NCBI GenBank assembly: GCA_963666975.2
Contig: CAXVYR010000003.1
Coordinates: forward strand, 32,001 to 96,000
Length of the DNA: 64,000 nucleotides
Source of the DNA: Terriglobia bacterium
GTDB lineage: Bacteria; Acidobacteriota; Terriglobia; 2-12-FULL-54-10
Direction: 5' to 3'
The notes under the pieces were generated by a model. It saw only the letters and a list, made by a program, of their open reading frames with translations, had not been told where the DNA came from and made no database searches. Made by a program: the position numbers and the translations under genes. Each line of letters starts with the position of its first letter. Within the stretch, counting starts at the first letter, position 1. Shown here one piece after another: positions 4,361 through 32,417 of the stretch.

Positions 4361-4363
4361 CGT

Positions 4364-14094: not shown

Positions 14095-17000
14095 ATGGGC
14101 TGCAATCAAGGATTTTTCCAAGGGTGGAGAGTTCTCAGGTTGCCGGAAGGTAAAACGGCCTCAGGAGCGGCGTTGAGAGGATCTTGTTTAGGGGCTTTGC
14201 TGGGCGTTCTGTTGTTTGCGATGGCACCCCTCGTTTGGGGGCAACTGGCGACCGGCTCTATTTCCGGCACGGTGGAGGACCCCACGGGGGCGGTCACGCC
14301 CGGGGTGCAGATCACGGTCCGCAACGTGGAAACCGGGATTACCCGGACGGTCGAGACCGGGCCGGCCGGCCGCTATCTGGTCACGAACCTGGCTCCTGGC
14401 AGTTATGCGGTAGAAGCGCAACTGACCGGCTTCCAGACCGAGGTGCGCCAAGGAATCACCCTCACAATAGGCCGGGAAGCCGTGATCGATCTCACCCTGA
14501 GCGTGGGACAGGTGCAAGAGCAGGTGGTGGTGACGGCGGAGGCCCCCTTGGTGGATACCACCAGCTCGGCCGTGTCGGGCCTGGTGGATCAGCAGCAAGT
14601 CCAGGGCTTGCCGCTGAACGGGCGCAGCCTGACGCAATTGACCACCTTGCAACCCGGGGTGCTTCTCTATCGGTCTAGGAGCACATGCACCGGCGTGGGA
14701 GAGAATATTATCATCAATGGAGCCCGTGCCCGGCAGATCAACTTTCTGTTGAACGGGACCAGTACCCTGAACTTTTTTGGCAAGTCCCCGGGCGGAATTT
14801 CGGGCCACCAGTTGGGCGTGGAAGGGGTCCGGGAGTTCACCGTGCTGAGCAGCAGCTACAGCGCTGAGTTCGGGCGCAGCGCCGGCGGGGTGGTCAACGC
14901 GGTTACCAAGTCGGGGACCAATACCCTGCATGGTTCTGTGTTTGATTACTTGCGGAACGACAATCTGGACGCGGCGCAGTGGGAGGACAACACGTTTAAC
15001 GACGGGGTCCAGCCGCCATTCGTGCGGAACCAGTTTGGGGCCAGCGTGGGCGGTCCCATCCGGCGCGACCAAACGTTTTTCTTCGCTACCGCGGAGTTTT
15101 TGCGGGAACGACTCGGCCAAACGTTGACTGACCGTTTCCCGACCGCGAACTCCCGGGCGGGCATTCTGCCGGACGGGAGCACCATCGAGGTGGCCGAGTC
15201 AATCAAACCGTATCTGGCTTTGCTACCGGTCCCGGACGATCGGTTTGATTTGGGCGATGGGTATGGGCGCCACGTAGCCTCCCTCACGCGGCCCACGGAT
15301 CAGAGCTATGTCAACTTCAGAATCGACCACCATTACTCCGATTCGCAATCCCTGTTTGGCAGCTATGTACTTGACGATTCGGACCGATTCTCGCCGCGCG
15401 CCGACGAACTCACGGCGCAATCGAATCCTTACCGCAATCAATACGCGACGCTGCAATGGGACAGCATCCTCTCCCCGACCATGCTCAACACGGCGCACGT
15501 TGGGTTCAATCGCTCCGAGGCCAATGACATCCCGACCTGTGAGGATTCTTTGCGGGCGCTCAACTTCATTCCCGGCACTGAGTTTTGTTCCCGCGGGGGG
15601 ATTACAGGCACGGGGGGCTTCTTCGGGCCCAGGGTTTTTATCCTCAACTCGTTCCAGTACTCCGATACGCTTTCCTGGACGCGAGGGATGCACTCCATCA
15701 AGCTCGGCGCTCGCTACGAACGCCATCAGGTCAACGGGACGGGTGGCATCTTTCCCGGCGGATGGATGGTCATGGCACCCGGTATTGAGAGGGAAATGAG
15801 GGGGCTGGTGAGCTTTTTTCAGGCTCCCCGGCCCGACGTGGATATAAATCGGGGGTTGAGGCAGAACTTCTATGCTTTCTTCGTGAACAACTCCATGCGG
15901 CTGATGCCCAATCTGACGGTGAACCTGGGCCTGCGTTACGAATTCATCACCCCCCCCACCGAGGTGAATGGGAAGTTGTCCAACCTGGACTCGGTGACTT
16001 CGCCGGAAGTGCGCATAGGAGAACCCTACTTCGAAAACCCGTCGCTGTGGAACTTCAGTCCTCGAGTGGGGATTGCGTGGGCTCCCGGAGGAAGCCAGAA
16101 CACCTCCGTTCGGGCCGGCTTTGGGATCTATTATGATCAACTGCTCCACCATACCTGGCTCGATGGACCCTTTCTGGCGCCCCCCTTCTATAGCGAAGCC
16201 CGTGTCTCTTCGGATCGCTCTTTTGCGCCTGGCAGCTTTCAGGTTCCCTTCCCCAACGCCTTCGATCTGTTTCTGGCGAACGACCCACGGGTAAGAACCG
16301 GGGGGTACCTGTTCTTCATTCAAGGGAATCCCCCACAGCCGTACACGCTCCAGTACAACTTCATGGTGCAACATCAACTGCCGGGACAATTGGTGGTGCA
16401 GGCAGCCTATGTGGGTACCGGGGGACGCAAATTGCCGCGCCTGATAGACAACACGGCTACTCCAACCACCCTCTCCGATGGCAGGCTCTTCTTTCCGGAA
16501 GATTCCGTCCGTCGGAACCCCAATTTTTCCGAGATACGCGCGAAGCAGTTTGATACGGTCAGCTCCTACAACGCGCTGCAGTTGGCGGCCCGGCGGCGGT
16601 TTGCGCGGGGGGCCGGCTTCCAGTTGTCTTACACCTGGTCCAAATCGATTGACATGATGTCGGATTTCCATGGCGCGGGCGATATCATTAACGATACGTT
16701 TTTCGGCACGTTGCCGGAATTGCCCGCATTCGACAAGGGGCGTTCGGCCTTTGATCGCCGGCATAATTTTGTCGGCAACTTTGCCGTGGACCTTCCGTTC
16801 GCGAGGAACCTGGAGGGGGCAGCGGCAAAACTGTTGGATGGTTGGCAGGTGCAGAGCATCCTGACGCTGCAAAGCGGCCTGTCGACGACGGCATTGCTTG
16901 ACACCAGGCGGCTTGGCTCGGGGTATACCCGCACCCGGTCCACCCGGGTTGGGGTGCGGCCGGACCTCGCCCCTGGGTTCACCGCTGAGAGTGTGGTGCT

Positions 17001-17355
17001 GGGAACGCCGAGCGAAAGCAACGATCCCCAGCATCGTTACCTGAACACCGCCGGGTTTGCCTTGCCTGCAGCAGGGTTCTTGGGGACTTTGGGACGCAAC
17101 ATCATCGATGGCCCGGGCCTCGCAACCTTTGACTTTTCCTTGATTAAGAGCACCGCGATCACGGAGAGGGTCAATCTGGAGTTTCGCACCGAGTTCTTCA
17201 ACCTGTTCAACCGGCCCAATTATTCTTCTCCCGCACAGACCGTGTTTAGAGGGGAACAAGACGGGACGGGCATACTGGACGGCAATTTCAGCACCATCAC
17301 CACTACCGTCAGCAGCGCCCGGCAAATCCAGTTGGCGCTGAAGCTCACGTTCTGA
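14095..17355 (+). CDS. TonB-dependent receptor (Oar-like, carboxypeptidase-regulatory N-domain)
   Basis: GSISGTVEDPTGA, LPLNGR, YSAEFGRSAGGVVNAVTKSGTN, NFSPRVG, C-terminal RQIQLALKLTF. Confidence 0.93.
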   Translation: MGCNQGFFQGWRVLRLPEGKTASGAALRGSCLGALLGVLLFAMAPLVWGQLATGSISGTVEDPTGAVTPGVQITVRNVETGITRTVETGPAGRYLVTNLAPGSYAVEAQLTGFQTEVRQGITLTIGREAVIDLTLSVGQVQEQVVVTAEAPLVDTTSSAVSGLVDQQQVQGLPLNGRSLTQLTTLQPGVLLYRSRSTCTGVGENIIINGARARQINFLLNGTSTLNFFGKSPGGISGHQLGVEGVREFTVLSSSYSAEFGRSAGGVVNAVTKSGTNTLHGSVFDYLRNDNLDAAQWEDNTFNDGVQPPFVRNQFGASVGGPIRRDQTFFFATAEFLRERLGQTLTDRFPTANSRAGILPDGSTIEVAESIKPYLALLPVPDDRFDLGDGYGRHVASLTRPTDQSYVNFRIDHHYSDSQSLFGSYVLDDSDRFSPRADELTAQSNPYRNQYATLQWDSILSPTMLNTAHVGFNRSEANDIPTCEDSLRALNFIPGTEFCSRGGITGTGGFFGPRVFILNSFQYSDTLSWTRGMHSIKLGARYERHQVNGTGGIFPGGWMVMAPGIEREMRGLVSFFQAPRPDVDINRGLRQNFYAFFVNNSMRLMPNLTVNLGLRYEFITPPTEVNGKLSNLDSVTSPEVRIGEPYFENPSLWNFSPRVGIAWAPGGSQNTSVRAGFGIYYDQLLHHTWLDGPFLAPPFYSEARVSSDRSFAPGSFQVPFPNAFDLFLANDPRVRTGGYLFFIQGNPPQPYTLQYNFMVQHQLPGQLVVQAAYVGTGGRKLPRLIDNTATPTTLSDGRLFFPEDSVRRNPNFSEIRAKQFDTVSSYNALQLAARRRFARGAGFQLSYTWSKSIDMMSDFHGAGDIINDTFFGTLPELPAFDKGRSAFDRRHNFVGNFAVDLPFARNLEGAAAKLLDGWQVQSILTLQSGLSTTALLDTRRLGSGYTRTRSTRVGVRPDLAPGFTAESVVLGTPSESNDPQHRYLNTAGFALPAAGFLGTLGRNIIDGPGLATFDFSLIKSTAITERVNLEFRTEFFNLFNRPNYSSPAQTVFRGEQDGTGILDGNFSTITTTVSSARQIQLALKLTF

Positions 17356-17410
17356 GGGTGAGCCACCGATAACTTGACAGAATTTCAAAATCCAAGGGAG
17401 AGATCTTGCA

Positions 17411-18895
17411 ATGCGAGCCATGATTGTCTCCTCGGCATTGCCGGGGGTAGTTTTCGTTCTGTTGATTGCAGTTGCACAACCAACCTTGCAAGGGCAGCAG
17501 ATCACCTATAGGCCAGGGCAATATCCGGCACCCCGTTATCCCCAAGCACTCAAAAACCCCATGGTCGAGGATTTGATGCCTATCGCCCGGCAAATTGTGA
17601 AACGACCGGATAGCGGTCAGATGTTCTATCCCGGTTATGACATCAAACCGGGTGAAAGAGTTTTGATTGCCGTGGCACGGCATTTTAATCCCGTTGTTTT
17701 GGAAGCCATTACCCGCGCCATCCGGGAAGCGGGAGCCAAAGTGGATGTAATGATGGGCAGCGACGCCTATTTGCCCGGCGGGGATGGGGCCACCGAATGG
17801 GAGTACTTCACTTTCATGAAGGCTATCATGAGTGCGCAGGCAGGTGGTATCCCGCAAGAGACCATCATTGCCATGACTCTGGCGGGAAAATACGACCTGG
17901 CCATTTCGGGCATGGGAGGAGGGATTCCTCCCCATCCCCGCGATAAGATGCGCTGGGCTTATATTCCCTGGGATTTGGCGGATATGTTTTACGTTCACGG
18001 AGCTGGCATACCGGCTGACCTATTGAAGTTCATTGACAGCAAGGCCTGGGAATCCCTCTCCAGTGCTGTACAGATCCATGCGACGGATCCGGAAGGCACC
18101 GACATTACCTGGTCGCCGAAAGGCGCTGACTGGCAGGTTCCCGGAAGGCATAATCCCGGGCATCTGTCCTCTCATCCTGGGCGATCTGGAGCTACCGGTG
18201 TGCTGGCAGGCACCTGGAACCACGTAGGACCCTTTCCCCACATCCGCGTTTCCTTCAACAATGATCGCATGGAAGGCATCGAAGGTGGGGGAAGCTACGG
18301 GCAAAAGTGGCGGGCCATTCGGGGTGAGTGGAAAAACGTGAGTGTGCCTACCAAGCCAGGTGCGGGTCTCTTTACCTGGTTGCAGGAGGCCTCGGTCGGA
18401 ACAAACCCAAAATCTCTGCGACCGAAGGCCGCTTTGGACATTGCGATGGGAAACATCTGGGAGAGGACCCGTTCGGGAGTCATGCATTGGGGAATTGGCG
18501 GGGGACACAGCGAGGAAACCGGGATGGCTACGACATCAAACAACTTCGCACTGGCTAACCCAACCCTCGGGGATTCACCATTGACAGAATTCTACGAGGC
18601 ACACCCGGACACACCGACCGGCCACGTCCACATCCACAACTACTTCATCACCATGGAGCTCACCAATGCCGATGGGAGCAAGACTACCTTGATCCACAAG
18701 GGACGCCTCACCGCTCTGGATGATCCACAGGTGCGGCAGGAGGCAGCCAAGTATGGCGACCCGGATAAGCTCCTGCAAGAAAACTGGATTCCGGCTATTC
18801 CCGGCATTAACATACCGGGAGACTATCAGAAAGATTACGCTGGCGACCCGGCGGCATGGATCCGCAAGGACTTAGCGACTAACTGGAAATACTGA
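17411..18895 (+). CDS. Exported M29/NicX-fold-like metalloprotein, type A1
   Basis: Signal peptide; KPGERVLI, DPEGTDITW, IEGGG, EASVGTNPK, ERTRSGVMHWG, HVHIH. Fold inferred from motif order. Confidence 0.65.
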   Translation: MRAMIVSSALPGVVFVLLIAVAQPTLQGQQITYRPGQYPAPRYPQALKNPMVEDLMPIARQIVKRPDSGQMFYPGYDIKPGERVLIAVARHFNPVVLEAITRAIREAGAKVDVMMGSDAYLPGGDGATEWEYFTFMKAIMSAQAGGIPQETIIAMTLAGKYDLAISGMGGGIPPHPRDKMRWAYIPWDLADMFYVHGAGIPADLLKFIDSKAWESLSSAVQIHATDPEGTDITWSPKGADWQVPGRHNPGHLSSHPGRSGATGVLAGTWNHVGPFPHIRVSFNNDRMEGIEGGGSYGQKWRAIRGEWKNVSVPTKPGAGLFTWLQEASVGTNPKSLRPKAALDIAMGNIWERTRSGVMHWGIGGGHSEETGMATTSNNFALANPTLGDSPLTEFYEAHPDTPTGHVHIHNYFITMELTNADGSKTTLIHKGRLTALDDPQVRQEAAKYGDPDKLLQENWIPAIPGINIPGDYQKDYAGDPAAWIRKDLATNWKY

Positions 18896-18957
18896 AGGCA
18901 GCAAGGCTTCGGGAAAGGGACCGTCAAGAAGAAGAAATGGAAAAAGGAGGAAAAGCC

Positions 18958-20409
18958 ATGGTAGCCGGTGCCAAGGGGATGTTTCTGTTCTTTTTGATTG
19001 CGCTTGCCGGACCGCTTCTATACTCGCAACAGAGAACGTACCAGCCGGGGGAATATCCGACTCCCCGCTACCCGAAGATTCCGAAGAATCCCACCATAGA
19101 GGACCTGATGCCGACAGCCCGAGCCATTATAAGGCGAGGTGACATCGGGGCCATGTTCTATCCCGGTTATGCCATTAAACCGGGCGAGAGGGCTCTGATG
19201 GCGGTGCCCCGAGATTTTGACCCGCTGGTGATCGAGGCCCTCGGGCGCGCCATCCGAGAAGCGGGAGCTAAGCTCGACTTGATCCTGGGAAACGAACCGT
19301 ATCTGCCCGGCGGAGACGGAGCGACGGAGTTTGAGTACTTCACCCAGATGAAAGACATCATGGCCGCGCAAGCGGGCGGCATCGAACAAGCTACTATCGT
19401 GGCGATGACTTTGGCTGGCAAATATGACATCGCCATTTCCGGCATGGGGGGAGGGATACCAGCCCATCCCCGTGACAAGATGCGCTGGGCATACATGCCC
19501 TGGGATATGGTCGACCAGTTTCTTGTGCACGGAGCGAGCATCCCGCCGGAGTTGCTGAAGTTTATTGACGATGTGGCCTGGAATACGCTGATTCAGGCAG
19601 TCCATATCCACGCCACGGATCCAGAGGGCACAGATATCAGTTGGCCTGCCACGCCGGAGGACTGGGAGAGCCCTGGGCGCCATACGCCGGGCCATTTCAT
19701 GTCTCATCCATTGATTGATCTGCAGGGGATACCGGGCGCTACCGGAGTGGTTGCAGGGACATGGAACCACACGGGGCCTCACCCCCACATCCGGCTTTCC
19801 TTCAAGAATGATCGGCTTGAGGGGATCGAAGGCGGGGGTGCCTATGGACAGAAGTGGCGTGGTATTCGAGATCAGTGGAAGGATGTGAAATGGTCTGGAA
19901 AGAAAGGTTCGGGACTGTTTAATTATTTGTTTGAAGCCTCGATCGGGACGAATCCGAAATCGGCCCGTCCCAAGGGAGCCCTGGAGCGCGCCATGGGCAA
20001 TATCTGGGAAAGGACCCGTGCGGGGGTTATCCACTGGGGGATCGGCGGTGATTCTAAAATGATCGACTTCTTTCCGAGCGATTCGGGCGATCCCGCTGTC
20101 GCCAAGTACTTCCAAGAGAATCCGGATACACCAACTGGCCACGTCCATGTGCACAACTACTTTCTGACGATGGTGCTCACCAACGCCGACGGAAGCAAGA
20201 CCACCTTCGTCGACAAAGGCCGTTTGACGGCGCTGGACGATCCCAGGGTTCGCCAAGAGGCCGCCAAGTATGGGGACCCGGATGAGCTGCTGGGGGAGAC
20301 CTGGATTCCGGCCATTCCCGGGATTAACGTGCCCGGAGATTACCGCAAGGACTATGCCGGCGATCCGGCCGCCTATGTCCGCAAGAACCTGGCGAACTGG
20401 CCATACTAA
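18958..20409 (+). CDS. Exported M29/NicX-fold-like metalloprotein, type A2
   Basis: Close paralog of A1 with the same motifs; GGAGG RBS. Confidence 0.65.
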   Translation: MVAGAKGMFLFFLIALAGPLLYSQQRTYQPGEYPTPRYPKIPKNPTIEDLMPTARAIIRRGDIGAMFYPGYAIKPGERALMAVPRDFDPLVIEALGRAIREAGAKLDLILGNEPYLPGGDGATEFEYFTQMKDIMAAQAGGIEQATIVAMTLAGKYDIAISGMGGGIPAHPRDKMRWAYMPWDMVDQFLVHGASIPPELLKFIDDVAWNTLIQAVHIHATDPEGTDISWPATPEDWESPGRHTPGHFMSHPLIDLQGIPGATGVVAGTWNHTGPHPHIRLSFKNDRLEGIEGGGAYGQKWRGIRDQWKDVKWSGKKGSGLFNYLFEASIGTNPKSARPKGALERAMGNIWERTRAGVIHWGIGGDSKMIDFFPSDSGDPAVAKYFQENPDTPTGHVHVHNYFLTMVLTNADGSKTTFVDKGRLTALDDPRVRQEAAKYGDPDELLGETWIPAIPGINVPGDYRKDYAGDPAAYVRKNLANWPY

Positions 20410-20439
20410 GTGCAGTATCGGTTCTTCGCGGCAAACCGT

Positions 20440-20615
20440 TCCGGCCTAAATGTTCACGTATTCATCCAGTGGGGTCCGTCCAGACAAGAGGGTCTGGGAG
20501 GCGATCCGGCAGGCCTGGGCCGAAAAGGGTGCGGAGATCCAAGCAGGCACCTACGAGTACATCGTAGAGGATTTCTCGTTTGACGTTTTGTGGGAGCGCT
20601 CGGTTCTGGCCGCCT
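20440..20615 (+). pseudogene. Internally deleted seventh paralog (type B)
   Basis: VHVFIQWG / VWEAIRQAWAEKG joined directly to the C-terminal IQAGTYEYIVEDFS. Confidence 0.75.
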
Positions 20616-20724
20616 GTGAAGAGCTTGCGACCGATAGCGAATGAAATGTCGTATAGCAAGGTGGTGAGACCATCGGAATTTGTTTTTGCTACGGTGACGG
20701 TCAATGGGAAGAAAAGAGGAAACT

Positions 20725-22383: not shown

Positions 22384-22421
22384 GAAGAGGATGCGGATTG
22401 TCAAAGCTTCGATCCCTCTAG

Positions 22422-22565
22422 AGCATTTCTCCAGTAGGTGTAGAGTTCTGGCAGCCGCGTAGCGTCAGCGTACTCGCTGGCCATTGGGTCGCCAGAGCCT
22501 GCCCCGAGCCAGCCGATGAGGATGGTGGCGCTACATTCCTCCTATACACTTTCGGGAGAACTGCT
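22422..22565. mobile_element. 144-bp MITE (CTAG or TA duplication; IS630/IS5-like ends)
   Basis: IR AGCATTTCTCC / GGAGAACTGCT flanked by CTAG; the paralogous spacer 24265-24338 is the empty site (148 bp shorter). Confidence 0.85.
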
Positions 22566-22605
22566 CTAGTTTGCGTGAGTTTCAACGGAAAGAGAGGACA
22601 GGACA

Positions 22606-24264: not shown

Positions 24265-24338
24265 GAAGAGGAAGCGGATTGTCAAAGACTCGGTCCCTCT
24301 AGTTTGCGTGAGTGTCAACGGAAAGAGAGGACAGGACA

Positions 24339-26006: not shown

Positions 26007-26107
26007 ACGACCCGGGGACGCATAGCAAAATGGAATGTAGGGAAGTGGCGGCAGACATCGAGCTTTTATTCATACGGTGACAGGCAACGGAAAGAAAGGA
26101 CAAAACT

Positions 26108-27766
26108 ATGATTTACCGTGATTCCACGCCCAGAGGATTTTTGTGTTCGACACGATCCCTCCCGATGAGCGTCATCGTATGCTTCGTTGTTAGTTTGATT
26201 AGCTTTTCCTGTTCCCGGCAGCAAGAGGAGGCCATGACCGGGGCAGCCTACCCACAACCGCGCTACCCCCGGTATCTGGTCAACCCCGATTCGGACGACC
26301 TCTTGAGTGCTGCACGCTTTGCGGTCCGCCAGCCGACCGGGCGTTCGCCCTTGGGGAAAATGCAGTCTGGGCAAGTCGTTCATGTGCTCATCCAGTGGGG
26401 GCAAGATATGCAAGTCTGGGAGGCGGTCCGGCAGGCCTGGGCCGAGAAAGATGTGGAGGCTCAAGCAATTGGGGTTTGGGAGGTCATGGGCATCACGAAG
26501 GAAGAGTATGACAAAAGGATGGAGCCGAACATAGTCTACGGCAATGAGGCATGGAAGGAGGCGGGAGTTTTCCTCCGCAGAGACTACAAACAGTTTTTTC
26601 CGGAAGATATCCAGAAACAGTTTGGCGACCCGATTGTTGATTTCCAGATAATTGACCCCTATCTGATCGCTTATCTCGACAAGCACCCTGAGGTCCAGAA
26701 TATTTATGCCGGCAATGGTGGCGGCGTTTTTTTTGTGAGGTGGCTTGGGGAAAAGCACGCCGACAAGTTCCAGGGGAACTGGATTTTCTACCGGTCGGTC
26801 GATCTGCTTTCCAAGGCGGCGGAATTTCCCGCCGACGTCTGGAATCTGGTGGACGAGAAAACGTTGCGCCCGATTCCCTTCGTTTCTGAGGTCACGTTCC
26901 AAGACCCCGAGGGGACGAATCTGGAATGGGCCGTAACTCCGGAACAGGCCCAGTTCTGGAGCAAGAGTGCCGGGAATTCCAATCACATCTACATTTATCC
27001 CAGTCCTCTGCACTCGACTTTCCAGGAAGGAGGGGTGCTGGCAGCACACGCCAACCATACCGGCATTTTCCCGACCATGACCGTTAACCTCGATCGTTAC
27101 GGGGCTATCGAAAGGATCGAGGGAGGTGGGCGTGTGGCAGAAATGTTCAACATCCTGCTGAATAACCCGGCATTCCATGATGTGCAGTTTCCGAATTCAC
27201 CAGCGCCGGGTTACTGGTTCTTCCGGCAAGATGGGTTCGCGACCAACCCGAAATTCCTTCGTAGCATACCGGCGCTGATTGAAGGTGAGCCGTTTTTGCC
27301 GAATGCCTCCGAGCGCAACCGGGCAGGCATCCAGCACCTGGCTTTTGCCTACGATTCCGTTGATCCCGAGGACCTATCCTATGCAAAGCAGCGAGGGATT
27401 CCATTGGGGGAGGGGCAGCATAATTTTCACATGCACGTTTATTTCCCCACCGCGCGGTGGAAGCTGCGGGACACGGGAGAGTGGATCACGATATCGGAAA
27501 AAGGGTATGTCACGATGTTTGACGACCCGGAGGTCCGCGCGCTGGCGGCGCGTTACGGAGGTCCGGATTTACTCTTCCGGTATGAGTGGAATCCATCGAT
27601 TCCTGGGGTCAATGTAGGAGGAGAGTACGAAAAGGATTTTGCCCAGGACCCCTGGAACTGGATTATGGCGGAATGGGAACAGATCCAAGCAGGCACCTAC
27701 GAGTACTTCGTAGAGGATTACTCGCTTGACAATCCTGTGGCTGCGCTCGATGCTGGCCGCCCGTAA
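26108..27766 (+). CDS. M29/NicX-fold-like probable lipoprotein, type B4
   Basis: Paralog of B1; ISFSC. Confidence 0.65.
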   Translation: MIYRDSTPRGFLCSTRSLPMSVIVCFVVSLISFSCSRQQEEAMTGAAYPQPRYPRYLVNPDSDDLLSAARFAVRQPTGRSPLGKMQSGQVVHVLIQWGQDMQVWEAVRQAWAEKDVEAQAIGVWEVMGITKEEYDKRMEPNIVYGNEAWKEAGVFLRRDYKQFFPEDIQKQFGDPIVDFQIIDPYLIAYLDKHPEVQNIYAGNGGGVFFVRWLGEKHADKFQGNWIFYRSVDLLSKAAEFPADVWNLVDEKTLRPIPFVSEVTFQDPEGTNLEWAVTPEQAQFWSKSAGNSNHIYIYPSPLHSTFQEGGVLAAHANHTGIFPTMTVNLDRYGAIERIEGGGRVAEMFNILLNNPAFHDVQFPNSPAPGYWFFRQDGFATNPKFLRSIPALIEGEPFLPNASERNRAGIQHLAFAYDSVDPEDLSYAKQRGIPLGEGQHNFHMHVYFPTARWKLRDTGEWITISEKGYVTMFDDPEVRALAARYGGPDLLFRYEWNPSIPGVNVGGEYEKDFAQDPWNWIMAEWEQIQAGTYEYFVEDYSLDNPVAALDAGRP

Positions 27767-27890
27767 CGCAAGGAGACTGAGGGGCCAAACGAAATGTGCA
27801 GAACCGGGTCCTCCCGGATGATATCCATGCAGGGAGCGGTGGCCAGTGCAGTGGTTCCCCTCTGCGGCTGCACAGCGAGGATGTGAGGTT

Positions 27891-28427
27891 GTGACGAGAG
27901 CAACACTTCTTGCGGGGGCGCTTGTTTTTGCTGTTGCGGTTGGAGTGCCGGCGGCCTCGCTGGCCCAAAGCAGCAGGTTCACGCTAGGAAGCGGATCGGG
28001 GGGCCCCGGTCATAGCGTAGGATTGCCGATCTACCTGACTCTCCCCAAAGACAGCGAGTTCGAGCGCATCATTGCAATCGTCGAACCCACTGCTGCCCTG
28101 GCGTATGACCGGGTGGAAGCAATGGAGGAGAACAGCGTTGTGCTCCGCGCGAAAGAGTCCGCTCCCGGAACGGACGGGAAGAGGCGTGTGGAAATCACGC
28201 TGGAAGGGGGGCAAGGAAAGCCGTTGCAGACCGGGCTGGCGGGCATGATTTATTTCACCATTGACCAAGATGCACGGCCGCAGATGGCCTCTCTGCCCGT
28301 TTCGGAGGTGAAAGGTTTCCCGAAGGGAAGTCGCGTGGCAGAAAATTTACGCGGCGATCAAGGGAGTGTCACGGTCTACGAGCCTGGGACAGAACCTGTT
28401 ATGACCTGCTTTTTTTTCACGCACTGA
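27891..28427 (+). CDS. Exported cohesin-like beta-sandwich protein with C-terminal CFFFTH tail
   Basis: Signal peptide ending ASLA-Q; GGPGHSVGLPIYL..G.AGMIYFTI..GSVTV cohesin-like strand pattern. Confidence 0.55.
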   Translation: MTRATLLAGALVFAVAVGVPAASLAQSSRFTLGSGSGGPGHSVGLPIYLTLPKDSEFERIIAIVEPTAALAYDRVEAMEENSVVLRAKESAPGTDGKRRVEITLEGGQGKPLQTGLAGMIYFTIDQDARPQMASLPVSEVKGFPKGSRVAENLRGDQGSVTVYEPGTEPVMTCFFFTH

Positions 28428-28614
28428 GGAAGTCTCAGCACGCCTTCTCAGGCTCGCCTCCAGAAAAAGTTGGGCAGGCACGCCCCGCTTCTCCGTGCTG
28501 GGTTGCGGGTGGCCGGTTTGTTGAAAGCCGGCCTGTGACCACTCAACAGAGGGGGCAGTCCGCCAAGGTAGTCGTAACAAACAATTTCTGTCTTCAGCCA
28601 GACAACAGGATTAC

Positions 28615-31600
28615 ATGAACCGCATTGTGCTTCATTGGTTTCTGCTTAGAGTCGTCGGCCGGCGCGTCATGCTGGGCTACGGTGTAGTCGCGCTTTTGTC
28701 GGTGGCGATTCTGGCGTCCCTGTACATGGCTTCGCGTTACGGTCTGGAAGCTTACGTTGACGACCAGCTCGGCCGGATTCCGTGGGAGATCTCCGTCATC
28801 CAGCGCGGCGAGACGTATCGCTATGCTGAACTTCAGGAAAAGTATCGGCAGCGCGCGGGTGTGCGCGAGGTGCAGGGGCTGGGCTTTCTGCGCGTGCGCA
28901 ACCTGTCGCCGGTGAGATTGGAGGCCGGGAACCAAGCCGTGCCCGTCCGCTGGATTGTGTTTGTTTCCGCCTCCAGCGAGGGATTATTGCCGCCGGAGCT
29001 GCGGAGAGGCCTCGAAGAGAACGGCGGTAGCGGCTCCTCGCCGCGGGTGATCGAAGCCGCGCTGGTGGGCGCTCCCGGAACAGCCGCAGGCGGCGGCAGC
29101 CTGGGAAGCATCCGCGCGGGCAGCGCGTTGCGCGTTTCCGTCGCTCTGGATCCGGAGGGGTTTGCCACGGTCCCGGACGATCATTCGCACGGTCCGGGGG
29201 CAATCGAACAGGACTCCTTACGCGTGCTGTTCGAAGGGGAACTGGCGAGCAACCCCCTGCAAATCGACCGGCAGGAGTTCAACCGGTGGATGTTGCGGGA
29301 GGTGGGGTCGTTGACGTACCTTCCCGAGGAATCCATCGTGCTGCCCGTGCCGATGGAGGATTTCCAGCGACTGGCCTCCCAGTTTCACGACCTGTTTCTG
29401 ACCTCCGAGGGAGTGCACGGAGGGGGAGCGGCGCCCACCTACGTGCCGGAAATGACCCACTTGATTGGCGTGGACCGGGAGCGGTTTGTTTCCACCTGGG
29501 ATCTGTACGGCTCGCTCCGGCGACTGGAGCCGGAGGTACGAGATATCTTCCGGGAAGCGCAGCGGCTGACGCCGTTTTCCTGGGCGAACAGCGATCTGGT
29601 TCTTTTGCTGTCCCGCATGAATGCGATTGCGCGGCTGATTAGCCTGGCGACGTTGCTGGTCTCGATTCCGCTGTTATGGATGGGGTGGGTGCTGGCGAGG
29701 TGGCTGGGGCGGCTGCTGGTTCTGGACCAGCGGCGGCTGATCGGCCTGGCCCTCATCCGGGGCGTTGCCAGCCGCGATGCGGGAAGGGCTGTTCTGTTGG
29801 CCCTTGGTTTAGGAGGCGCCATCGGTGGCTTGGCCGGCCTGCTTCTGGGCACCGGGCTTCCCATCCTGGGGTACTCTCTGGCGGGCCGCGCTGTGCCTCC
29901 GCAGATCGTATTGCTGGAGGCGGTGGTGTACTTCGGGGCTTTTCTGATCGTCGGGGTGGCTCTGGCGGTGCTGTCGGGACGGGATGTGCTCCGGTTTGTG
30001 CGCCGCCTGACGCCGCGGGAAGCCATCTCCAGGGCCGAGGGCGAAGCGGCGGAGAAGGCGGCCCCTGCGTTGTCGCGGTACGACGTGGGAAGTTTCCTGG
30101 TGGCGCTGGCGCTGGGAAGCTACAAGATCGGGTCGTGGATTGCCGGCCAGTCGCCCTTGCTTGACGCTTCGCGGGATCTTTTGCCCAACGGGGTGGTGCA
30201 GGCCCTGGTTGTCCTGGAGGGGGTCTTGAACTTTGTCGCTGTTCCGCTGTTGCTGTACGGGCTGGCGGGCTTGCTGCTCTGGAGAGTCGCCCTGGTCCAG
30301 AAAGTGATCGGCAAACTGACGGCTCCGCTGGTCGGGAGTCTGGATTGGTTTGTCAGCCAGTACATGGCGCTACGGCGCCAGCGGGTGGCGCAGCTTCTGT
30401 TCGTGGCGGGGATGGCGACGGCCCTGAGCCTGATGCCGCAGGTTGCCGGCGACGGTTTTTATGACCGGGTTGTCCGGGGGGTCAGAACGTCGCTGGGATC
30501 GGAGATGCTTTTGGAGTTCGACCTCCAGGCGCTGGGCAGCGATCTGGTAGGCCCGGCCGCCCTGGGCCGTTACCAGCAGGCGCTGCAGCCGCAAGTGAAC
30601 CGGTTGCGCGAGATGATCGCAAGCGATGACGATGTCGCGACCGTGGAAGTGATCCAGCAATTTCTGATTCCCAGCATCTACATACCGGGCCAGAGCGGCC
30701 TGCTGCTGAACCTGATCGAGGACCCCGGCCATTACCTGGCGATGGTGCAATACGAGGACGGCCTGGGGCTGACGCGGAGCTTCCCGGATGCGATCGCCTC
30801 GCTGGAGGACGGGAAGGTGCTGGGGTCGCTGGGGCTGTTCCGGCTGCGCGCCATCCAGCTGGAAAAACCGGTGATTCTCGGCTACGACTCCCGGGGCGAG
30901 GAAATCCTCTCCCAATTTGACGATATCGTGGCCTTCCTGCCGGGCCAGCCGGCGAGAGCCATTGAGCAGCGGGAGGGGTTCGCGACGGCTGAGATCGACT
31001 ACCTGAATTACCTGCTGACGGCAGATGCCCGCATGGTTTTCTCTCAGGAGCAGTTGTTGCAGTCACCCAATTTGCAGGAGTTGACCGTCGTGCCGTCCCG
31101 GGCTGTTTTCCTGATTACCACCCGGAACGGGGTTGCCGGCGCCGAGCTGGCCGCTCGTCTGAGCACGCGGCTTCCGTGGAAGGCCGAACAGGCCCGGTGG
31201 GAAGCGGCGGAACGCGAGCGCCTGGGAAAAGACATGTTCGTGTCGCTGGCGATGGAAAACATGCGGGTCTACATGATCGGGAGCCTGCTGCTGGCATGTG
31301 CCAGCGTGGGGGCCATCGCGTTGTCGAACTTTGTGGCAGACCGGCGCACCTTCGGGCTGCTGCGGCTGCGGGGGGTGGCGCCGTCACTGCTGCTGCGGAT
31401 TACCCTGTCGTTCTTCCTCCTGCCCGTTATGGCGGGCGTGCTGGTGGGCATCGCCGTGGGGGCGGTCTCGGGCTTCGGCTTGTCACAGGCCATCTGGGAT
31501 CTGCCGCGTGTGCACGGGATCGGCGACTTTCTGTCCAACCAGCTGATCTTCTCGGCAACAGCTGGGGTGATCACCGTAACGCTGATCGCCATCTTTGCCG

Positions 31601-31668
31601 CCTTGGCATGGGGCATTGGGGTCTGGCTGTTCCGGAGGACGGCGCGAGAGGCGATTCGGGAGGGGTAA
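28615..31668 (+). CDS. FtsX/MacB-type ABC permease (double-length)
   Basis: Two FtsX-like modules (QRRLIGLALIRG; DRRTFGLLRLRG), large periplasmic loops, DDHSH motif. Confidence 0.85.
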   Translation: MNRIVLHWFLLRVVGRRVMLGYGVVALLSVAILASLYMASRYGLEAYVDDQLGRIPWEISVIQRGETYRYAELQEKYRQRAGVREVQGLGFLRVRNLSPVRLEAGNQAVPVRWIVFVSASSEGLLPPELRRGLEENGGSGSSPRVIEAALVGAPGTAAGGGSLGSIRAGSALRVSVALDPEGFATVPDDHSHGPGAIEQDSLRVLFEGELASNPLQIDRQEFNRWMLREVGSLTYLPEESIVLPVPMEDFQRLASQFHDLFLTSEGVHGGGAAPTYVPEMTHLIGVDRERFVSTWDLYGSLRRLEPEVRDIFREAQRLTPFSWANSDLVLLLSRMNAIARLISLATLLVSIPLLWMGWVLARWLGRLLVLDQRRLIGLALIRGVASRDAGRAVLLALGLGGAIGGLAGLLLGTGLPILGYSLAGRAVPPQIVLLEAVVYFGAFLIVGVALAVLSGRDVLRFVRRLTPREAISRAEGEAAEKAAPALSRYDVGSFLVALALGSYKIGSWIAGQSPLLDASRDLLPNGVVQALVVLEGVLNFVAVPLLLYGLAGLLLWRVALVQKVIGKLTAPLVGSLDWFVSQYMALRRQRVAQLLFVAGMATALSLMPQVAGDGFYDRVVRGVRTSLGSEMLLEFDLQALGSDLVGPAALGRYQQALQPQVNRLREMIASDDDVATVEVIQQFLIPSIYIPGQSGLLLNLIEDPGHYLAMVQYEDGLGLTRSFPDAIASLEDGKVLGSLGLFRLRAIQLEKPVILGYDSRGEEILSQFDDIVAFLPGQPARAIEQREGFATAEIDYLNYLLTADARMVFSQEQLLQSPNLQELTVVPSRAVFLITTRNGVAGAELAARLSTRLPWKAEQARWEAAERERLGKDMFVSLAMENMRVYMIGSLLLACASVGAIALSNFVADRRTFGLLRLRGVAPSLLLRITLSFFLLPVMAGVLVGIAVGAVSGFGLSQAIWDLPRVHGIGDFLSNQLIFSATAGVITVTLIAIFAALAWGIGVWLFRRTAREAIREG

Positions 31669-31688
31669 AGAGAGGGGTAAAGAAAAGA

Positions 31689-32417
31689 ATGGTGATGAGG
31701 AGTCTGTTCCGCCGGTCGGGGATGGAGTGTTCTATCCGGGGGTTGGTGAAGCAATACGAAGTTGGTGACAGTATCTATCCGGTCTTAAAAGGGATCAACT
31801 GCGATATGCAGCCCGGGCAAGTGGCCATCATCCAGGGTCCCAGCGGATGCGGCAAGACTACTTTTCTAAATTTGCTGGGAGGCATCGACGAGCCGGACGG
31901 CGGCCAGATCCGAATCGGCGGGGTTAATCTGGAAAGGGTTGAGTCCGACTTGGCCCGTTACCGGCTGTTGGACGTGGGGTTCGTGTTCCAGGCCTTCAAT
32001 CTGATCCCCGGCCTTTCCGGCCTCGACAATTTGCAGCTGCCCATGGCCGTCGCCGGCCGCCGGCACAACGAGAGAGTCGAGCGGTCCCATGACCTGCTGG
32101 AACTGGTGGGAATGCGGGAGATGGCCGCCAAGCAGCCCGATGAGCTGAGCGGCGGCGAGCAACAGCGCGTCGCCATTGCCATAGCGCTGGTCAACGACCC
32201 GCCGCTGATTCTCGCCGATGAGCCGACGGGGAATCTCGACAGCGTCAACGGCGGGATCGTCGCCGACCTGCTCTGCGCGCTGGCCCGCGACCACGGAAAG
32301 ACGGTGGTCATCTGCACGCACGATCCGGCCGTCGGCGTCCGCGGTGACCAGATCTTACGCATGCGCGACGGCCTCATCACAGACAACGGGCAGAACGCAA
32401 CGCCAACAACTTCCTGA
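31689..32417 (+). CDS. ABC ATP-binding protein (LolD/MacB-like)
   Basis: GPSGCGKTT, LSGGEQQRVA, ILADEPTGNLD, CTHD. Confidence 0.93.
   Translation: MVMRSLFRRSGMECSIRGLVKQYEVGDSIYPVLKGINCDMQPGQVAIIQGPSGCGKTTFLNLLGGIDEPDGGQIRIGGVNLERVESDLARYRLLDVGFVFQAFNLIPGLSGLDNLQLPMAVAGRRHNERVERSHDLLELVGMREMAAKQPDELSGGEQQRVAIAIALVNDPPLILADEPTGNLDSVNGGIVADLLCALARDHGKTVVICTHDPAVGVRGDQILRMRDGLITDNGQNATPTTS

What the first reader, a model, noticed from the sequence alone, without database searches (positions are those of the whole stretch)
14095..32417. Candidate new system: TonB receptor + six exported M29/NicX-fold metalloproteins + CFFFTH cohesin-like protein + FtsX-type ABC transporter
Seen: ten intact co-oriented genes in an otherwise ruined island, comprising two Sec-type (A) and four lipoprotein-like (B) paralogs of one family, a small beta-sandwich protein and a MacB/LolCDE-like transporter. 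Known: characterised M29-fold proteins (AmpT/AmpS peptidases, NicX dioxygenase, crocagin CgnB/E) are cytoplasmic and not arrayed like this. Inference: an envelope-located multi-enzyme station, PUL-like but for non-glycan substrates, or a periplasmic peptide-modification pathway, with the transporter placing or metallating its parts. I recognise no described pathway with this architecture.
Basis: partly seen in the sequence, partly recalled or inferred. Interest (0 to 1): 0.9.

Follow-up and report, generated by a model that had tools for sequence, protein, structure and literature searches.

The report
Exported metalloenzyme array with FtsX transporter
A bacterial gene cluster joins an outer-membrane importer, six exported copies of an unusual metal-enzyme fold, a small adaptor-like protein with a fixed six-residue tail and an ATP-driven membrane machine; its parts recur together in many environmental genomes, and no function is known for them.

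Summary
There are ten intact co-oriented genes: a TonB-dependent transporter, 2 A-type and 4 B-type paralogs, a small exported protein ending in CFFFTH, a 1017-aa permease and an ABC ATPase. A1 has the M29/NicX fold (Foldseek E 4e-13; hhalign 98.5%). The small protein has a cohesin fold (E 5.6e-9). The permease is a 10-TM double-FtsX protein.

The ten-gene order is specific to this genome. In the sister genome the same genes are permuted, so the cluster is three separable modules:
- TBDT plus exported A-clade enzymes, which recurs in Acidobacteriota.
- B-clade enzyme plus FtsX permease plus ATPase. This held in 7 of 7 genome loci. Among the best 80 metagenome loci, 39 of the 43 with at least 2.5 kb upstream of the permease had an M29-like gene and 67 of the 69 with at least 500 bp downstream had the ATPase. 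All 92 linked enzymes were B-clade.
- A large undescribed family of stand-alone cohesins whose tail is C-F-F-[FY]-x-H (137 of 139 short representatives). They often sit at the ends of arrays of exported metallohydrolases.

This genome carries about 90 exported amidohydrolase genes, many next to TBDTs, so the locus fits a genome-wide non-glycan, PUL-like design. Substrate and chemistry remain unknown. A docking prediction between B4 and the permease's second periplasmic loop gave only weak support. I rate it a new variant of known kinds and of real interest.

The parts
14095..17355 (+). SusC-like TonB-dependent transporter (1086 aa)
   Evidence: Pfam hits: OMP_b-brl_4 3.3e-171, CarboxypepD_reg 2.2e-19, Plug 3e-5, TonB_dep_Rec_b-barrel 1.5e-6. 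It is one of 33 full-length paralogs in the genome.
17411..18895 (+). A1, a Sec-exported A-clade M29/NicX-superfamily metalloprotein (494 aa)
   Evidence: No Pfam or NCBIfam hit. AF2 model has pLDDT 89.2. Foldseek: 8 of 8 hits at E<=1e-3 are PepS, AmpS, AmpT or NicX. hhalign against an M29 alignment gives 98.5% probability, E 3.2e-15. Signal peptide seen.
18937..20409 (+). A2, paralog of A1 (490 aa, 69% identical)
20704..22383 (+). B1, exported B-clade paralog (559 aa) with a lipobox-like SFSC
   Evidence: It lies in the B clade of the tree.
22606..24264 (+). B2 (552 aa)
24312..26006 (+). B3 (564 aa from a GTG start; the true start may be a few codons later)
26108..27766 (+). B4 (552 aa)
   Evidence: Used as the partner chain in the complex prediction.
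27891..28427 (+). COH, a stand-alone exported cohesin-fold protein (178 aa from GTG 27891; the ORF opens at 27846) with the C-terminal tail CFFFTH
   Evidence: The start was chosen from homologs. AF2 model has pLDDT 85, with a flexible tail. Top Foldseek hits are all cohesins, E 5.6e-9. The family has 1405 representatives at E<=1e-3, and 137 of 139 short ones carry the tail motif.
28615..31668 (+). PERM, a 10-TM double-FtsX permease (1017 aa) with two large periplasmic loops at about 37-340 and 613-884
   Evidence: No Pfam hit. Hydropathy. In the Atlas, 30 of 30 nearest clusters are FtsX. Full-length homologs at 30-33% identity (E about 1e-140) carry PF02687.
31695..32417 (+). ABC ATPase of the LolD/MacB/FtsE group (about 240 aa)
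   Evidence: ABC_tran 2.3e-30. LolD TIGR02211 4.2e-55 at 186.6 bits, below its cut-off of 307.75. The start was taken from the translation and the G001 ortholog.
12551..13837 (-). Upstream boundary: transposase-like ORF (HTH domains plus a weak rve hit)
33169..34674 (+). Downstream boundary: DDE_Tnp_1_4 transposase
   Evidence: 4.6e-117. An 89%-identical copy lies elsewhere in the genome.

Best explanation
The locus is an envelope nutrient-processing cluster built from three modules that are conserved independently of each other.

1. A SusC-like TonB-dependent transporter followed by Sec-exported A-clade proteins of the M29/NicX superfamily.
2. B-clade exported paralogs that travel with a 10-TM double-FtsX permease and its LolD/MacB-type ATPase. 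This is a type VII, mechanotransmission-type ABC system.
3. A stand-alone periplasmic cohesin with an invariant C-F-F-[FY]-x-H tail.

Most likely working: the TBDT imports a non-glycan organic substrate into the periplasm, either a small N-containing or aromatic compound or a peptide-like molecule. The A and B proteins transform it by metal-dependent catalysis. B enzymes dock on the periplasmic loops of the FtsX-like permease. Cytoplasmic ATP hydrolysis is transmitted outward to gate or drive the B-dependent step, as FtsEX does for cell-wall hydrolases. The cohesin acts as an adaptor that holds, anchors or metallates the exported enzymes.

Shown here: gene content, folds, export signals, clade structure and module conservation. 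Inferred: the substrate, the chemistry, the B-permease contact and the cohesin's role.
For: Folds and homology:
- A1 has the M29/NicX fold.
- A1 keeps the M29 ligand columns E319 (as E326; D in B) and H349 (as H359), plus an invariant H407-x-H409.

Export:
- Acidobacterial members have signal peptides. Members from Bacillota, Actinomycetota, Chloroflexota, Myxococcota and Binatia do not.

Catabolic context of the cytoplasmic relatives:
- NMT1-type binding-protein ABC importers in 10 loci, UbiD in 5, AMP-binding ligases in 7, MFS in 5.

TBDT link:
- A TBDT hit occurs in 18 of 80 family loci.
- It lies directly upstream on the same strand in 5 loci by script, plus L014, L030 and L049 by coordinates.
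- Genome-wide, G000 has about 90 exported Amidohydro_3 paralogs. Of its 33 TBDTs, 13 have one within 1 kb and 20 within 5 kb.

B-PERM-ATPase module:
- All 7 genome loci with a full-length PERM homolog have a B-type gene and an ATPase beside it.
- 310 metagenome stretches encode a PERM relative. Among the best 80, 67 of 69 evaluable loci have the ATPase directly downstream. Of 43 loci with at least 2.5 kb upstream, 39 hold an M29-like gene, and in 36 it is upstream on the same strand.
- All 92 of those enzyme ORFs have their best hit in the B clade.
- The 12 PERM-linked proteins fall in one clade of 14 with SH-aLRT 100.

Docking prediction, B4 (47-552) with PERM loop 612-886:
- Verdict: weak support. 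Score 0.41 (runs 0.05, 0.41, 0.49); best of 3 controls 0.00.
- The mark was reached by 58 of 80 solved complexes and 2 of 110 mismatched pairs. At 0.60 or under it was reached by only 7 of those 80 and by both mismatches that passed.
- The runs agree in at least 0% of their contacts. Partner pLDDT is at least 88.

Cohesin link:
- COH-type ORFs with the tail lie beside A-type genes in 7 of 80 loci. There are 9 such ORFs, 7 of them within 130 bp.
- They lie after the ATPase in 3 metagenome loci.
- They lie beside Amidohydro_3 arrays in 7 of 8 loci of G166.

RNA libraries:
- Contigs of two metatranscriptome-library runs from one study lie on the locus at 99% identity or more: 24 of 26 and 32 of 32 contigs. 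This is consistent with transcription but does not prove it.
Against: - No substrate or activity is known for any member of the family.
- Pfam Peptidase_M29 does not hit A1 or B1 even at E<=10.
- The M29 ligand E253 has no acidic counterpart, and the H-x-D motif is H-x-H here. The chemistry may therefore differ from both peptidase and NicX, or the proteins may be binders like CgnE.
- The docking result is only weak, and one of its three runs scored 0.05. The first periplasmic loop was not tested.
- Module order is not fixed. G001 is permuted, and L012 lacks COH-PERM-ATPase after the B array.
- 4 of 43 metagenome loci show no M29-like gene.
- COH paralogs also sit in unrelated contexts. 10 of 17 sampled loci in family f1 have no hydrolase or TBDT within 5 kb, and one subgroup lies upstream of MFP-RND genes.
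- In G000, the proximity of COH genes to amidohydrolases is not above chance by my arithmetic.
- The locus is bracketed by IS elements, so the present juxtaposition may be recent.
Confidence: 0.45

Rival explanations
1. The ten genes are not one system. Two or three unrelated modules (a TBDT plus enzyme array, an FtsX/ABC module with its own enzyme, and a generic periplasmic cohesin) were brought side by side here by IS-mediated rearrangement, and each works on its own.
For: - The flanks are IS-rich, and an IS sits inside the second locus.
- G001 has the order B-B-COH-PERM-ATP ... TBDT-A-A-B-B-B.
- L012 has the A/B array alone.
- Most of the 80 A-type loci have no PERM or COH hit by tblastn.
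- TBDT hits occur in only 14 of 80 metagenome PERM loci.
Against: - A and B are paralogs of one family and are arrayed together behind one TBDT in G000, G001 and L012. L023 has TBDT followed by a B-clade and then an A-clade gene.
- A TBDT or TBDT fragment lies within about 12 kb in 5 of 7 genome PERM loci.
- COH recurs next to both A-type genes and the PERM-ATPase pair.
Confidence: 0.2
2. B is a secreted, potentially self-harmful enzyme. The FtsX/ABC pair is its immunity or detoxifying transporter, as in lactococcin-972-type or BceAB-type modules (both recalled from memory, not from a call).
For: - A Sec-exported protein gene sits directly upstream of an FtsX permease plus ATPase, with no membrane-fusion adaptor gene.
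- The ATPase matches the L_ocin_972_ABC and DarD models at 1.5e-49 and 2.2e-46, but below their cut-offs and no better than LolD.
Against: - B genes are arrayed with a nutrient-type TBDT and with A paralogs.
- They are about 500-aa M29-like enzymes, not small bacteriocins.
- Up to three tandem B copies per module suit substrate breadth better than a toxin.
- The weak docking signal fits a partner better than an antagonist, though it does not exclude one.
Confidence: 0.1
3. A periplasmic peptide-modification (RiPP-like, crocagin-style) pathway. COH is the precursor and its C-terminal CFFFTH is the core. A and B bind and modify it, the ABC system exports the product, and the TBDT takes it back up, for example as a metal-binding peptide.
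For: - CgnB and CgnE are M29-like proteins that bind the precursor peptide CgnA, and paralog pairs are typical of that pathway (PMC10070186; abstract and passages read).
- The tail is invariant while the body diverges to about 20-28% identity.
- COH lies next to A-type genes in 7 of 80 loci.
- The tail holds one Cys and one His.
Against: - COH is a folded cohesin domain of about 150 aa with its own signal peptide.
- There are 7-9 copies per genome, mostly beside Amidohydro_3 arrays or unrelated genes.
- No CgnC-like oxygenase or CgnD-like protease is present in the cluster.
- Both A and B keep the conserved His/Glu set, unlike the degenerate second copy described for crocagin pairs.
- No CgnB or CgnE chain is among the 8 Foldseek hits at E<=1e-3.
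Confidence: 0.08
4. A dedicated Lol-like system in which PERM and the ATPase extract the B lipoproteins from the inner membrane and send them to the outer membrane or the cell surface.
For: - The best NCBIfam hit of the ATPase is LolD.
- B1-B4 and their G001 and L012 orthologs carry a Cys after the hydrophobic stretch.
Against: - B orthologs beside PERM in G000 locus 2, G006, G007, G003 and G052 have signal-peptidase-I-type ends without a Cys.
- The LolD score of 186.6 bits is far below the cut-off of 307.75.
- PERM is one 10-TM chain with two loops of about 270-300 aa, whereas LolC/LolE are a 4-TM pair (recalled).
Confidence: 0.05

Closest known systems
FtsEX with EnvC, PcsB, RipC or CwlO (a type VII ABC system that controls a periplasmic hydrolase; recalled, no call)
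   Same: An FtsX-family permease plus an FtsE/LolD-like ATPase, encoded with an extracytoplasmic enzyme and without a membrane-fusion adaptor. The proposed working is the same: ATP-driven mechanotransmission to a periplasmic partner.
   Different: - The permease is a single 1017-aa chain with 10 TM segments and two large loops, not a 4-TM FtsX dimer.
- The partner is an M29/NicX-fold metalloprotein, not a coiled-coil activator or a peptidoglycan hydrolase.
- The module is tied to TBDTs and enzyme arrays, not to cell division.
- Physical contact has only weak in-silico support.
MacAB-TolC and LolCDE (recalled)
   Same: The ATPase group, FtsX-family membership, and the TM1, large loop, TM2-4 layout, here repeated twice.
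   Different: - No MFP or TolC gene in the cluster or beside the homologous loci checked.
- B orthologs in other genera are not lipoproteins.
M29 aminopeptidases (PepS, AmpS, AmpT) and the NicX 2,5-dihydroxypyridine dioxygenase
   Same: - The fold: Foldseek E 4e-13 to 3e-9, with the best TM-score, 0.58, to NicX 7cn3.
- Profile homology to M29.
- Two of the five M29 ligand columns are kept.
- One homolog, P0092, carries the Pfam NicX family PF26233.
   Different: - No Pfam M29 hit.
- H-x-H stands in place of the H-x-D motif that NicX (His318, Asp320; PMC7910607, abstract and passages read) and M29 share.
- About 100 residues longer.
- Sec-exported in Acidobacteriota.
- Arrayed in tandem behind a TBDT.
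CgnB/CgnE of crocagin biosynthesis (PMC10070186)
   Same: M29-derived proteins without a Pfam family, occurring as adjacent paralogs and acting on a protein or peptide C-terminus. Here a protein with a conserved C-terminal tail is encoded nearby.
   Different: - Cytoplasmic versus exported.
- No CgnC, CgnD or CgnL equivalents in the cluster.
- Both paralog types keep the conserved metal-site residues.
- The candidate 'precursor' is a folded cohesin family found mostly beside other enzyme families.
Bacteroidota polysaccharide utilisation loci (SusC/SusD; recalled)
   Same: A SusC-like TBDT with a CarboxypepD_reg N-terminal domain, followed by exported or lipoprotein-like enzymes. The design is repeated many times in the genome.
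   Different: - No SusD-like gene and no glycoside hydrolase among the ten genes.
- The enzymes are metallohydrolase or oxygenase folds (M29-like, Amidohydro_3).
Cellulosomal and non-cellulosomal cohesin modules
   Same: The fold: TM-score 0.74 normalised by the target (0.62 by the model) to a type I cohesin. The family profile also hits multi-cohesin scaffoldins, for example P0129 with 8 matched stretches.
   Different: - A stand-alone protein of about 180-210 aa with a signal peptide.
- No Pfam Cohesin hit.
- No dockerin identified in A, B or the amidohydrolases (not searched systematically).
- An invariant C-terminal C-F-F-[FY]-x-H tail, whose three commonest strings (CFFFTH, CFFYMH, CFFFSH) occur in no paper of the searched library.

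Membership tests
Peptidase_M29 (AmpS/AmpT/PepS) | Match to Pfam PF02073 above the gathering score | tested here: not met
   A1, A2 and B1-B4 have no Pfam hit at E<=0.01. A1 and B1 have none at E<=10.
Peptidase_M29 (AmpS/AmpT/PepS) | The M29 two-domain fold and detectable profile homology | tested here: met
   Foldseek: 8 of 8 hits at E<=1e-3 are M29 or NicX chains. hhalign of A1 against A3 gives 98.5% probability, E 3.2e-15, over 282 columns.
Peptidase_M29 (AmpS/AmpT/PepS) | The full set of five metal ligands (E, E, H, H, D; invariant columns E253, E319, H349, H382, D384 in alignment A3) | tested here: not met
   E319 and H349 align to E326 (D in B) and H359. E253 has no acidic counterpart. 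The H-x-D region lies outside the aligned range, and the family has H407-x-H409 there.
Peptidase_M29 (AmpS/AmpT/PepS) | Aminopeptidase activity | not testable with these tools
   Needs enzymology.
NicX-type Fe(II) ring-cleavage dioxygenase | Match to Pfam PF26233 | not testable with these tools
   The family is not in the local library. One homolog of the 120 listed (P0092, 38% identical) carries it precomputed. Atlas leads point the same way.
NicX-type Fe(II) ring-cleavage dioxygenase | Fe(II) ligands His265, Ser302, His318, Asp320 (PMC7910607) | tested here: inconclusive
   NicX 7cn3 gives the best TM-score normalised by the target, 0.58 (0.43 by the model), but no residue-level alignment to NicX was available. 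The family's H-x-H sits where M29 and NicX have H-x-D.
CgnB/CgnE peptide-binding proteins | Encoded with a short precursor peptide, a CgnC-type oxygenase and a CgnD-type protease | tested here: not met
   None of the ten genes has such a domain. No Cgn chain is among the Foldseek hits at E<=1e-3.
Type VII ABC transporter (FtsX/MacB/LolCDE superfamily) | ATPase of the LolD/MacB/FtsE group | tested here: met
   NCBIfam: LolD 4.2e-55, DevA 1.7e-54, MacB 2.8e-52, FtsE 4.5e-50. All are below the equivalog cut-offs, so membership holds at group level only.
Type VII ABC transporter (FtsX/MacB/LolCDE superfamily) | FtsX domain (PF02687) in the permease | tested here: inconclusive
   No Pfam hit on the window protein itself, and the profile search of PDB sequences found nothing. 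However, full-length homologs at 29-34% identity (E 1e-106 to 1e-140) carry PF02687, and 30 of 30 nearest Atlas clusters are FtsX.
Type VII ABC transporter (FtsX/MacB/LolCDE superfamily) | TM1, large extracytoplasmic loop, TM2-4 topology | tested here: met
   Hydropathy shows this unit twice, with loops at about 37-340 and 613-884.
MacAB-TolC-type tripartite pump | Adjacent membrane-fusion (HlyD-family) adaptor | tested here: not met
   No HlyD-family hit among the ten genes or among the neighbours scanned in L094, L095, L096 and L098.
LolCDE lipoprotein extractor | The client proteins are lipoproteins | tested here: not met
   B orthologs beside PERM in five other loci lack the Cys.
Cohesin | Cohesin beta-sandwich fold | tested here: met
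   89 Foldseek hits at E<=1e-3. All listed rows are cohesin or cohesin-like modules, best E 5.6e-9.
Cohesin | A dockerin-bearing partner | not tested
   No dockerin search was made. No Pfam domain of any kind was found in A or B.
SusC/SusD-type PUL | A SusC-like TBDT paired with a SusD-like lipoprotein and glycan-active enzymes | tested here: not met
   A SusC-like TBDT is present, but no SusD or glycoside-hydrolase domain occurs among the ten genes.

The most novel reading that the evidence does not exclude
Two undescribed envelope devices meet in this locus.

(a) A widespread three-gene machine in which a double-FtsX/ABC mechanotransducer powers or gates a periplasmic M29/NicX-fold metalloenzyme. 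This would use ATP across the membrane for nutrient chemistry, rather than for cell-wall remodelling or export.

(b) A family of stand-alone periplasmic cohesins whose invariant C-F-F-[FY]-x-H tail is a new functional tag for Sec-exported metallohydrolase arrays. The tag could be a metal-handing Cys/His tail, an active-site plug or an anchoring signal.
Probability: 0.2. Interest if true: 0.85.

Novelty: new variant of a known kind. Interest (0 to 1): 0.65.

Why it matters
- Type VII ABC systems are known to do mechanical work in the periplasm for cell division, lipoprotein sorting and efflux. A conserved pairing with a catabolic-type metalloenzyme would extend that principle to nutrient processing. 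Here the pairing held in 39 of the 43 metagenome loci that had at least 2.5 kb upstream of the permease, out of the best 80 kept from 310 matching stretches.
- The locus also shows that some Acidobacteriota organise dozens of TBDT-linked arrays of exported metallohydrolases. This is a non-glycan counterpart of PULs and bears on how these abundant soil and marine bacteria scavenge organic nitrogen.
- The cohesin family, with at least 1405 representatives at 50% identity clustering and an invariant terminal hexapeptide, has no Pfam or NCBIfam model and its motif appears in no paper of the searched library. It is a well-defined and easily testable unknown.

Tried and rejected
Searches and tests that gave nothing or were not decisive:
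- Profile searches of PDB sequences with the A family and the PERM family found nothing.
- A genome-contig scan with the first COH alignment found no relative. The genome search then found the family.
- I asked whether COH genes in G000 lie near amidohydrolases more often than chance. 2 of 7 loci have one within 1 kb. With about 90 copies covering roughly 8% of the genome including flanks, the probability is about 0.1 by my arithmetic, so this is not significant. The link rests on G166 and on the A-type and PERM loci instead.
- A mirror-tree comparison to choose which periplasmic loop to dock gave correlations with B of 0.86 for loop 1 and 0.94 for loop 2. It is confounded by phylogeny and not decisive. 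Only loop 2 was sent. Loop 1 and the whole permease remain untested.
- Rfam gave no riboswitch or other regulatory RNA in or before the cluster.
- The Mo-hydroxylase genes downstream (35014-37745) were considered as part of a heterocycle pathway. They are separated from the cluster by an IS and are not found next to the G001 locus, so I left them out.
- The Lol-like and RiPP-like readings are treated under rival explanations.
- Parts of the locus without cover in the RNA-library contigs are no evidence either way.
- The careful tree search did not finish. The quick IQ-TREE tree with SH-aLRT support was used. L012 rows and rows outside 430-570 aa were left out of it.

Literature searches:
- Acidobacteria + TonB-dependent + amidohydrolase + peptidase gave 1 irrelevant paper.
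- The three tail strings gave 0 papers.
- FtsX + M29 + periplasmic + ABC transporter gave 1 irrelevant paper.
- Supplements of the two papers I read were not seen. The CgnB/E homolog lists and trees are in those supplements and could overlap with this family.

Full report
WHAT IS THERE.

The region 14095-32417 holds ten intact ORFs on the + strand, with gaps of 26-294 bp.
- Pfam names only the first and the last gene. The first is a SusC-like TonB-dependent transporter (OMP_b-brl_4 3.3e-171, CarboxypepD_reg, Plug). The last is an ABC ATPase.
- NCBIfam places the ATPase in the LolD/DevA/MacB/FtsE group, below every equivalog cut-off.
- The six paralogs, the small protein and the 1017-aa membrane protein have no Pfam or NCBIfam hit. 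This holds even at E<=10 for A1, B1, COH and PERM.
- A1/A2 are 69% identical, the B copies 73-84%, and A versus B 29-32%.
- The cluster is bracketed by transposase ORFs, and the window holds at least four transposase ORFs.
- The window is G000:C3:32001-96000 of a 4.23-Mb genome in 4 contigs.

THE SIX PARALOGS.

Fold and homology:
- An AF2 model of A1 (pLDDT 89.2, pTM 0.88) hits only M29 aminopeptidases (PepS, AmpS, AmpT) and NicX at E<=1e-3. That is 8 of 8 hits, best E 4.2e-13. The best TM-score normalised by the target is 0.58, to NicX.
- I built an alignment of 11 canonical Peptidase_M29 proteins taken from genomes of the same phylum. It aligns to the family profile at 98.5% probability, E 3.2e-15.
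- Of the five invariant M29 ligand columns, E319 and H349 correspond to E326 (Asp in B) and H359. E253 has no acidic counterpart. Where M29 and NicX have H-x-D, the family has an invariant H407-x-H409. NicX ligands are His265, Ser302, His318 and Asp320 (PMC7910607, abstract and passages).
- Both A and B keep these residues. Neither looks like the degenerate second copy described for crocagin CgnB/CgnE pairs (PMC10070186, abstract and passages).
The proteins are not members of M29 by Pfam, however, and their metal site differs from both characterised relatives.

Size and spread of the family:
- At least 247 proteins in one search and 313 loci in the species-genome collection.
- Ten copies in G000.

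Export and context:
- Members from Bacillota, Actinomycetota, Chloroflexota, Myxococcota and Binatia start without a hydrophobic segment. Acidobacterial members, and a few from Pseudomonadota, carry signal peptides.
- The cytoplasmic members sit with NMT1-type binding-protein ABC importers (10 loci), AMP-binding ligases (7), UbiD decarboxylases (5), polysaccharide-deacetylase-like genes (6) and MFS carriers (5).
- That is a small-molecule uptake-and-catabolism setting rather than a protease setting.

THREE MODULES, NOT ONE FIXED SYSTEM.

(1) TBDT plus A.
- A TBDT hit lies in 18 of the 80 family loci.
- It lies directly upstream on the same strand in 5 loci by script. L014, L030 and L049 add three more by the coordinates.

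(2) B plus PERM plus ATPase.
- Full-length PERM homologs occur in 6 of the 61 related genomes searched, G000 among them, at 7 loci. Every one of these loci has a B-type gene and an ATPase beside it. This includes a second locus in G000 itself, where an IS4-like transposase sits between the B genes and PERM.
- As an independent test I scanned metagenome contigs with the PERM alignment. 310 stretches encode a relative, and the best 80 were kept.
- The ATPase follows directly in 67 of 69 evaluable loci.
- Of 43 loci with at least 2.5 kb upstream, 36 have one to three M29-like genes upstream on the same strand, 3 have one downstream, and 4 have none.
- All 92 such ORFs of at least 300 aa have their best hit among B-clade references and none among the A-type or cytoplasmic references.
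- In a quick ML tree the 12 PERM-linked proteins fall in one clade of 14 with SH-aLRT 100.

(3) COH (see below).

Order of the modules:
- The sister genome G001 has B-B-COH-PERM-ATPase, an IS fragment, two other genes, then TBDT, an A fragment, A-A-B-B-B.
- Relative L012 has A-A-B-B-B-B followed by unrelated genes.
- The ten-gene order of the window is therefore one arrangement of linked modules, probably shaped by IS activity.

THE PERMEASE.
- Hydropathy gives 10 TM segments with two large extracytoplasmic loops, at about 37-340 and 613-884.
- The Atlas's 30 nearest clusters are all FtsX proteins of about 1000 aa.
- Of the 66 homologs, most of those at 29-34% identity carry PF02687, and two of them are named FtsX-like permease.
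- No membrane-fusion adaptor is encoded in the cluster or beside the homologous loci that I scanned.
- B orthologs beside PERM in other genera have signal-peptidase-I-type ends without a Cys. A Lol-like lipoprotein-sorting role is therefore unlikely.
- One docking job was run, with B4 residues 47-552 against PERM 612-886 and family alignments for both chains. The verdict was weak support.
  - Score 0.41 (runs 0.05, 0.41, 0.49); best of 3 controls 0.00.
  - The mark was reached by 58 of 80 solved complexes and 2 of 110 mismatched pairs. At 0.60 or under it was reached by only 7 of those 80 and by both mismatches that passed.
  - The runs agree in at least 0% of their contacts. Partner pLDDT is at least 88.
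- Given the strong prior from gene linkage this raises my odds a little and no more.

THE COHESIN WITH A TAIL.

Fold and family:
- The model (pLDDT 85) is a beta-sandwich with a flexible last 15 residues or so.
- All listed Foldseek hits are cohesin or cohesin-like modules, best E 5.6e-9, with 89 hits at E<=1e-3.
- G000 has eight ORFs ending exactly in CFFFTH. One is a 56-aa piece of a frameshifted copy, and two are identical copies on C1 and C3. The bodies are only about 20-30% identical.
- A profile search of 1.84 billion representatives found 1405 proteins at E<=1e-3 and 702 at E<=1e-10.
- Of the 139 listed proteins of up to 330 aa, 137 end in C-[FYL]-[FLV]-[FY]-x-H. The commonest tails are CFFYMH (58), CFFFTH (41) and CFFFSH (26).

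Distribution:
- The family is patchy and multi-copy. It occurs in 13 of 13 genomes of the window's family, but in only 1 of 200 other genomes sampled across the phylum (G166, 9 copies).

Context:
- Beside A-type genes in 7 of 80 loci (9 ORFs, 7 of them within 130 bp).
- After the ATPase in three metagenome PERM loci, with tail CFFYLH.
- Beside Amidohydro_3 genes or arrays in 7 of 8 loci of G166. In one case its start overlaps the stop of the last of four tandem amidohydrolases.
- Beside an amidohydrolase or TBDT in 5 of 17 sampled loci of family f1. The other loci are in unrelated settings, and one conserved subgroup lies upstream of MFP-RND genes.
- The three commonest tail strings occur in no paper of the library.
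- Its role is open. The options I can see are an adaptor or scaffold, a Cys/His metal-handing tail, an active-site plug, or an anchoring signal.

GENOME-WIDE DESIGN.
- G000 has about 90 places encoding exported Amidohydro_3 proteins of about 630 aa, often in tandem arrays of up to seven.
- It has 33 full-length TBDT paralogs. 13 of them have such a gene within 1 kb and 20 within 5 kb.
- The locus studied is the M29-like version of this repeated plan.

EXPRESSION AND OCCURRENCE.
- Twelve public runs hold at least half of the sampled words of 24312-32417, and the 20 rows that hold the stretch or a part of it come from 8 studies.
- One DNA contig in each of two runs spans 27696-33000, which covers COH, PERM and the ATPase.
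- Contigs of two metatranscriptome-library runs from one study lie on the TBDT, A1, A2, the B copies, COH and the ATPase at 99% identity or more: 24 of 26 and 32 of 32 contigs. This is consistent with transcription, but DNA carry-over is not excluded.

VERDICT.
- The best reading is a TBDT-fed periplasmic processing locus. Its B-clade enzymes are functionally coupled to a dedicated double-FtsX/ABC mechanotransducer, with a tail-bearing cohesin as accessory.
- Substrate, chemistry and contacts are inferred, not shown.
- Each part belongs to a known kind of fold or machine, while their conserved combinations and the cohesin tail family are undescribed. I therefore rate it a new variant of known kinds.

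Noticed in passing
G000 genome-wide, e.g. C2:306641-320928, C3:10294-18222, C4:2239377-2249551: There are about 90 places encoding exported Amidohydro_3 proteins of about 630 aa, often in tandem arrays of up to seven and often next to TBDT genes (13 of 33 TBDTs within 1 kb). This is a striking genome-wide design in its own right.
   Followed up: partly
window 35014-37745 (+): A small ORF with a 2Fe-2S-like Cys motif overlaps or precedes an 811-aa MoCoBD_1/MoCoBD_2 protein (xanthine-dehydrogenase/aldehyde-oxidase family). It lies just past the downstream transposase. It is not found next to the G001 locus.
   Followed up: partly
window 38709-41309 (-): An 866-aa ORF with no Pfam hit at E<=0.001.
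   Followed up: no
window 44975-48931 (+): A 1318-aa protein with many NHL/teneurin-NHL repeats and a BACON_2 domain.
   Followed up: no
G000, at least 11 places, e.g. C3:778721-779617 and L009:8847-10016: A multi-copy IS4-like element (DUF4372 plus DDE_Tnp_1 transposase). Its antisense strand carries an identical 298-aa ORF at 11 places. One copy sits between the B genes and PERM in the second locus.
   Followed up: partly
G000 C1:6564-7337 and C3:767016-767789: The 8.7-kb contig C1 carries a COH paralog identical to one on C3. C1 is probably an unresolved repeat of that region.
   Followed up: no
G000 C3:1065153-1065766 (-): A COH paralog whose CFFFTH end lies in another reading frame. This is either a frameshifted pseudogene or an assembly error.
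   Followed up: no
L133 (G003:C1:2615301-2625900) 4879-10598; also G000 C4:1689683-1697296: A conserved COH subgroup (tail ...PGTxP..CFFFTH) lies upstream of two unknown small proteins, two HlyD_D23 membrane-fusion proteins and an RND pump.
   Followed up: partly
L158, L165, L166, L185, L186, L191, L192, L206, L208, L222, L223 (metagenome loci), between B and PERM: A subset of PERM loci has an extra exported protein of about 450 aa of unknown family between the B gene and PERM, often with a TBDT further upstream.
   Followed up: no
L098 (G003:C1:254001-274000) 3380-12549: Next to the B-PERM module in G003 are a TBDT and three proteins that combine CarboxypepD_reg, a cytochrome-c-like stretch and a Vgb-lyase-like beta-propeller.
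   Followed up: no
L012 2921-7524: In a close relative the B genes are broken into pieces (B1 at about 3380, B4 at about 7140) and the array is truncated. This may be decay or long-read assembly error.
   Followed up: no
L070 4814-5001 (-): A cobalamin riboswitch lies about 5 kb from the cytoplasmic family member of Paenibacillus naphthalenovorans. It probably belongs to a neighbouring transporter.
   Followed up: no
window 4179-4251 (-): A tRNA gene.
   Followed up: no
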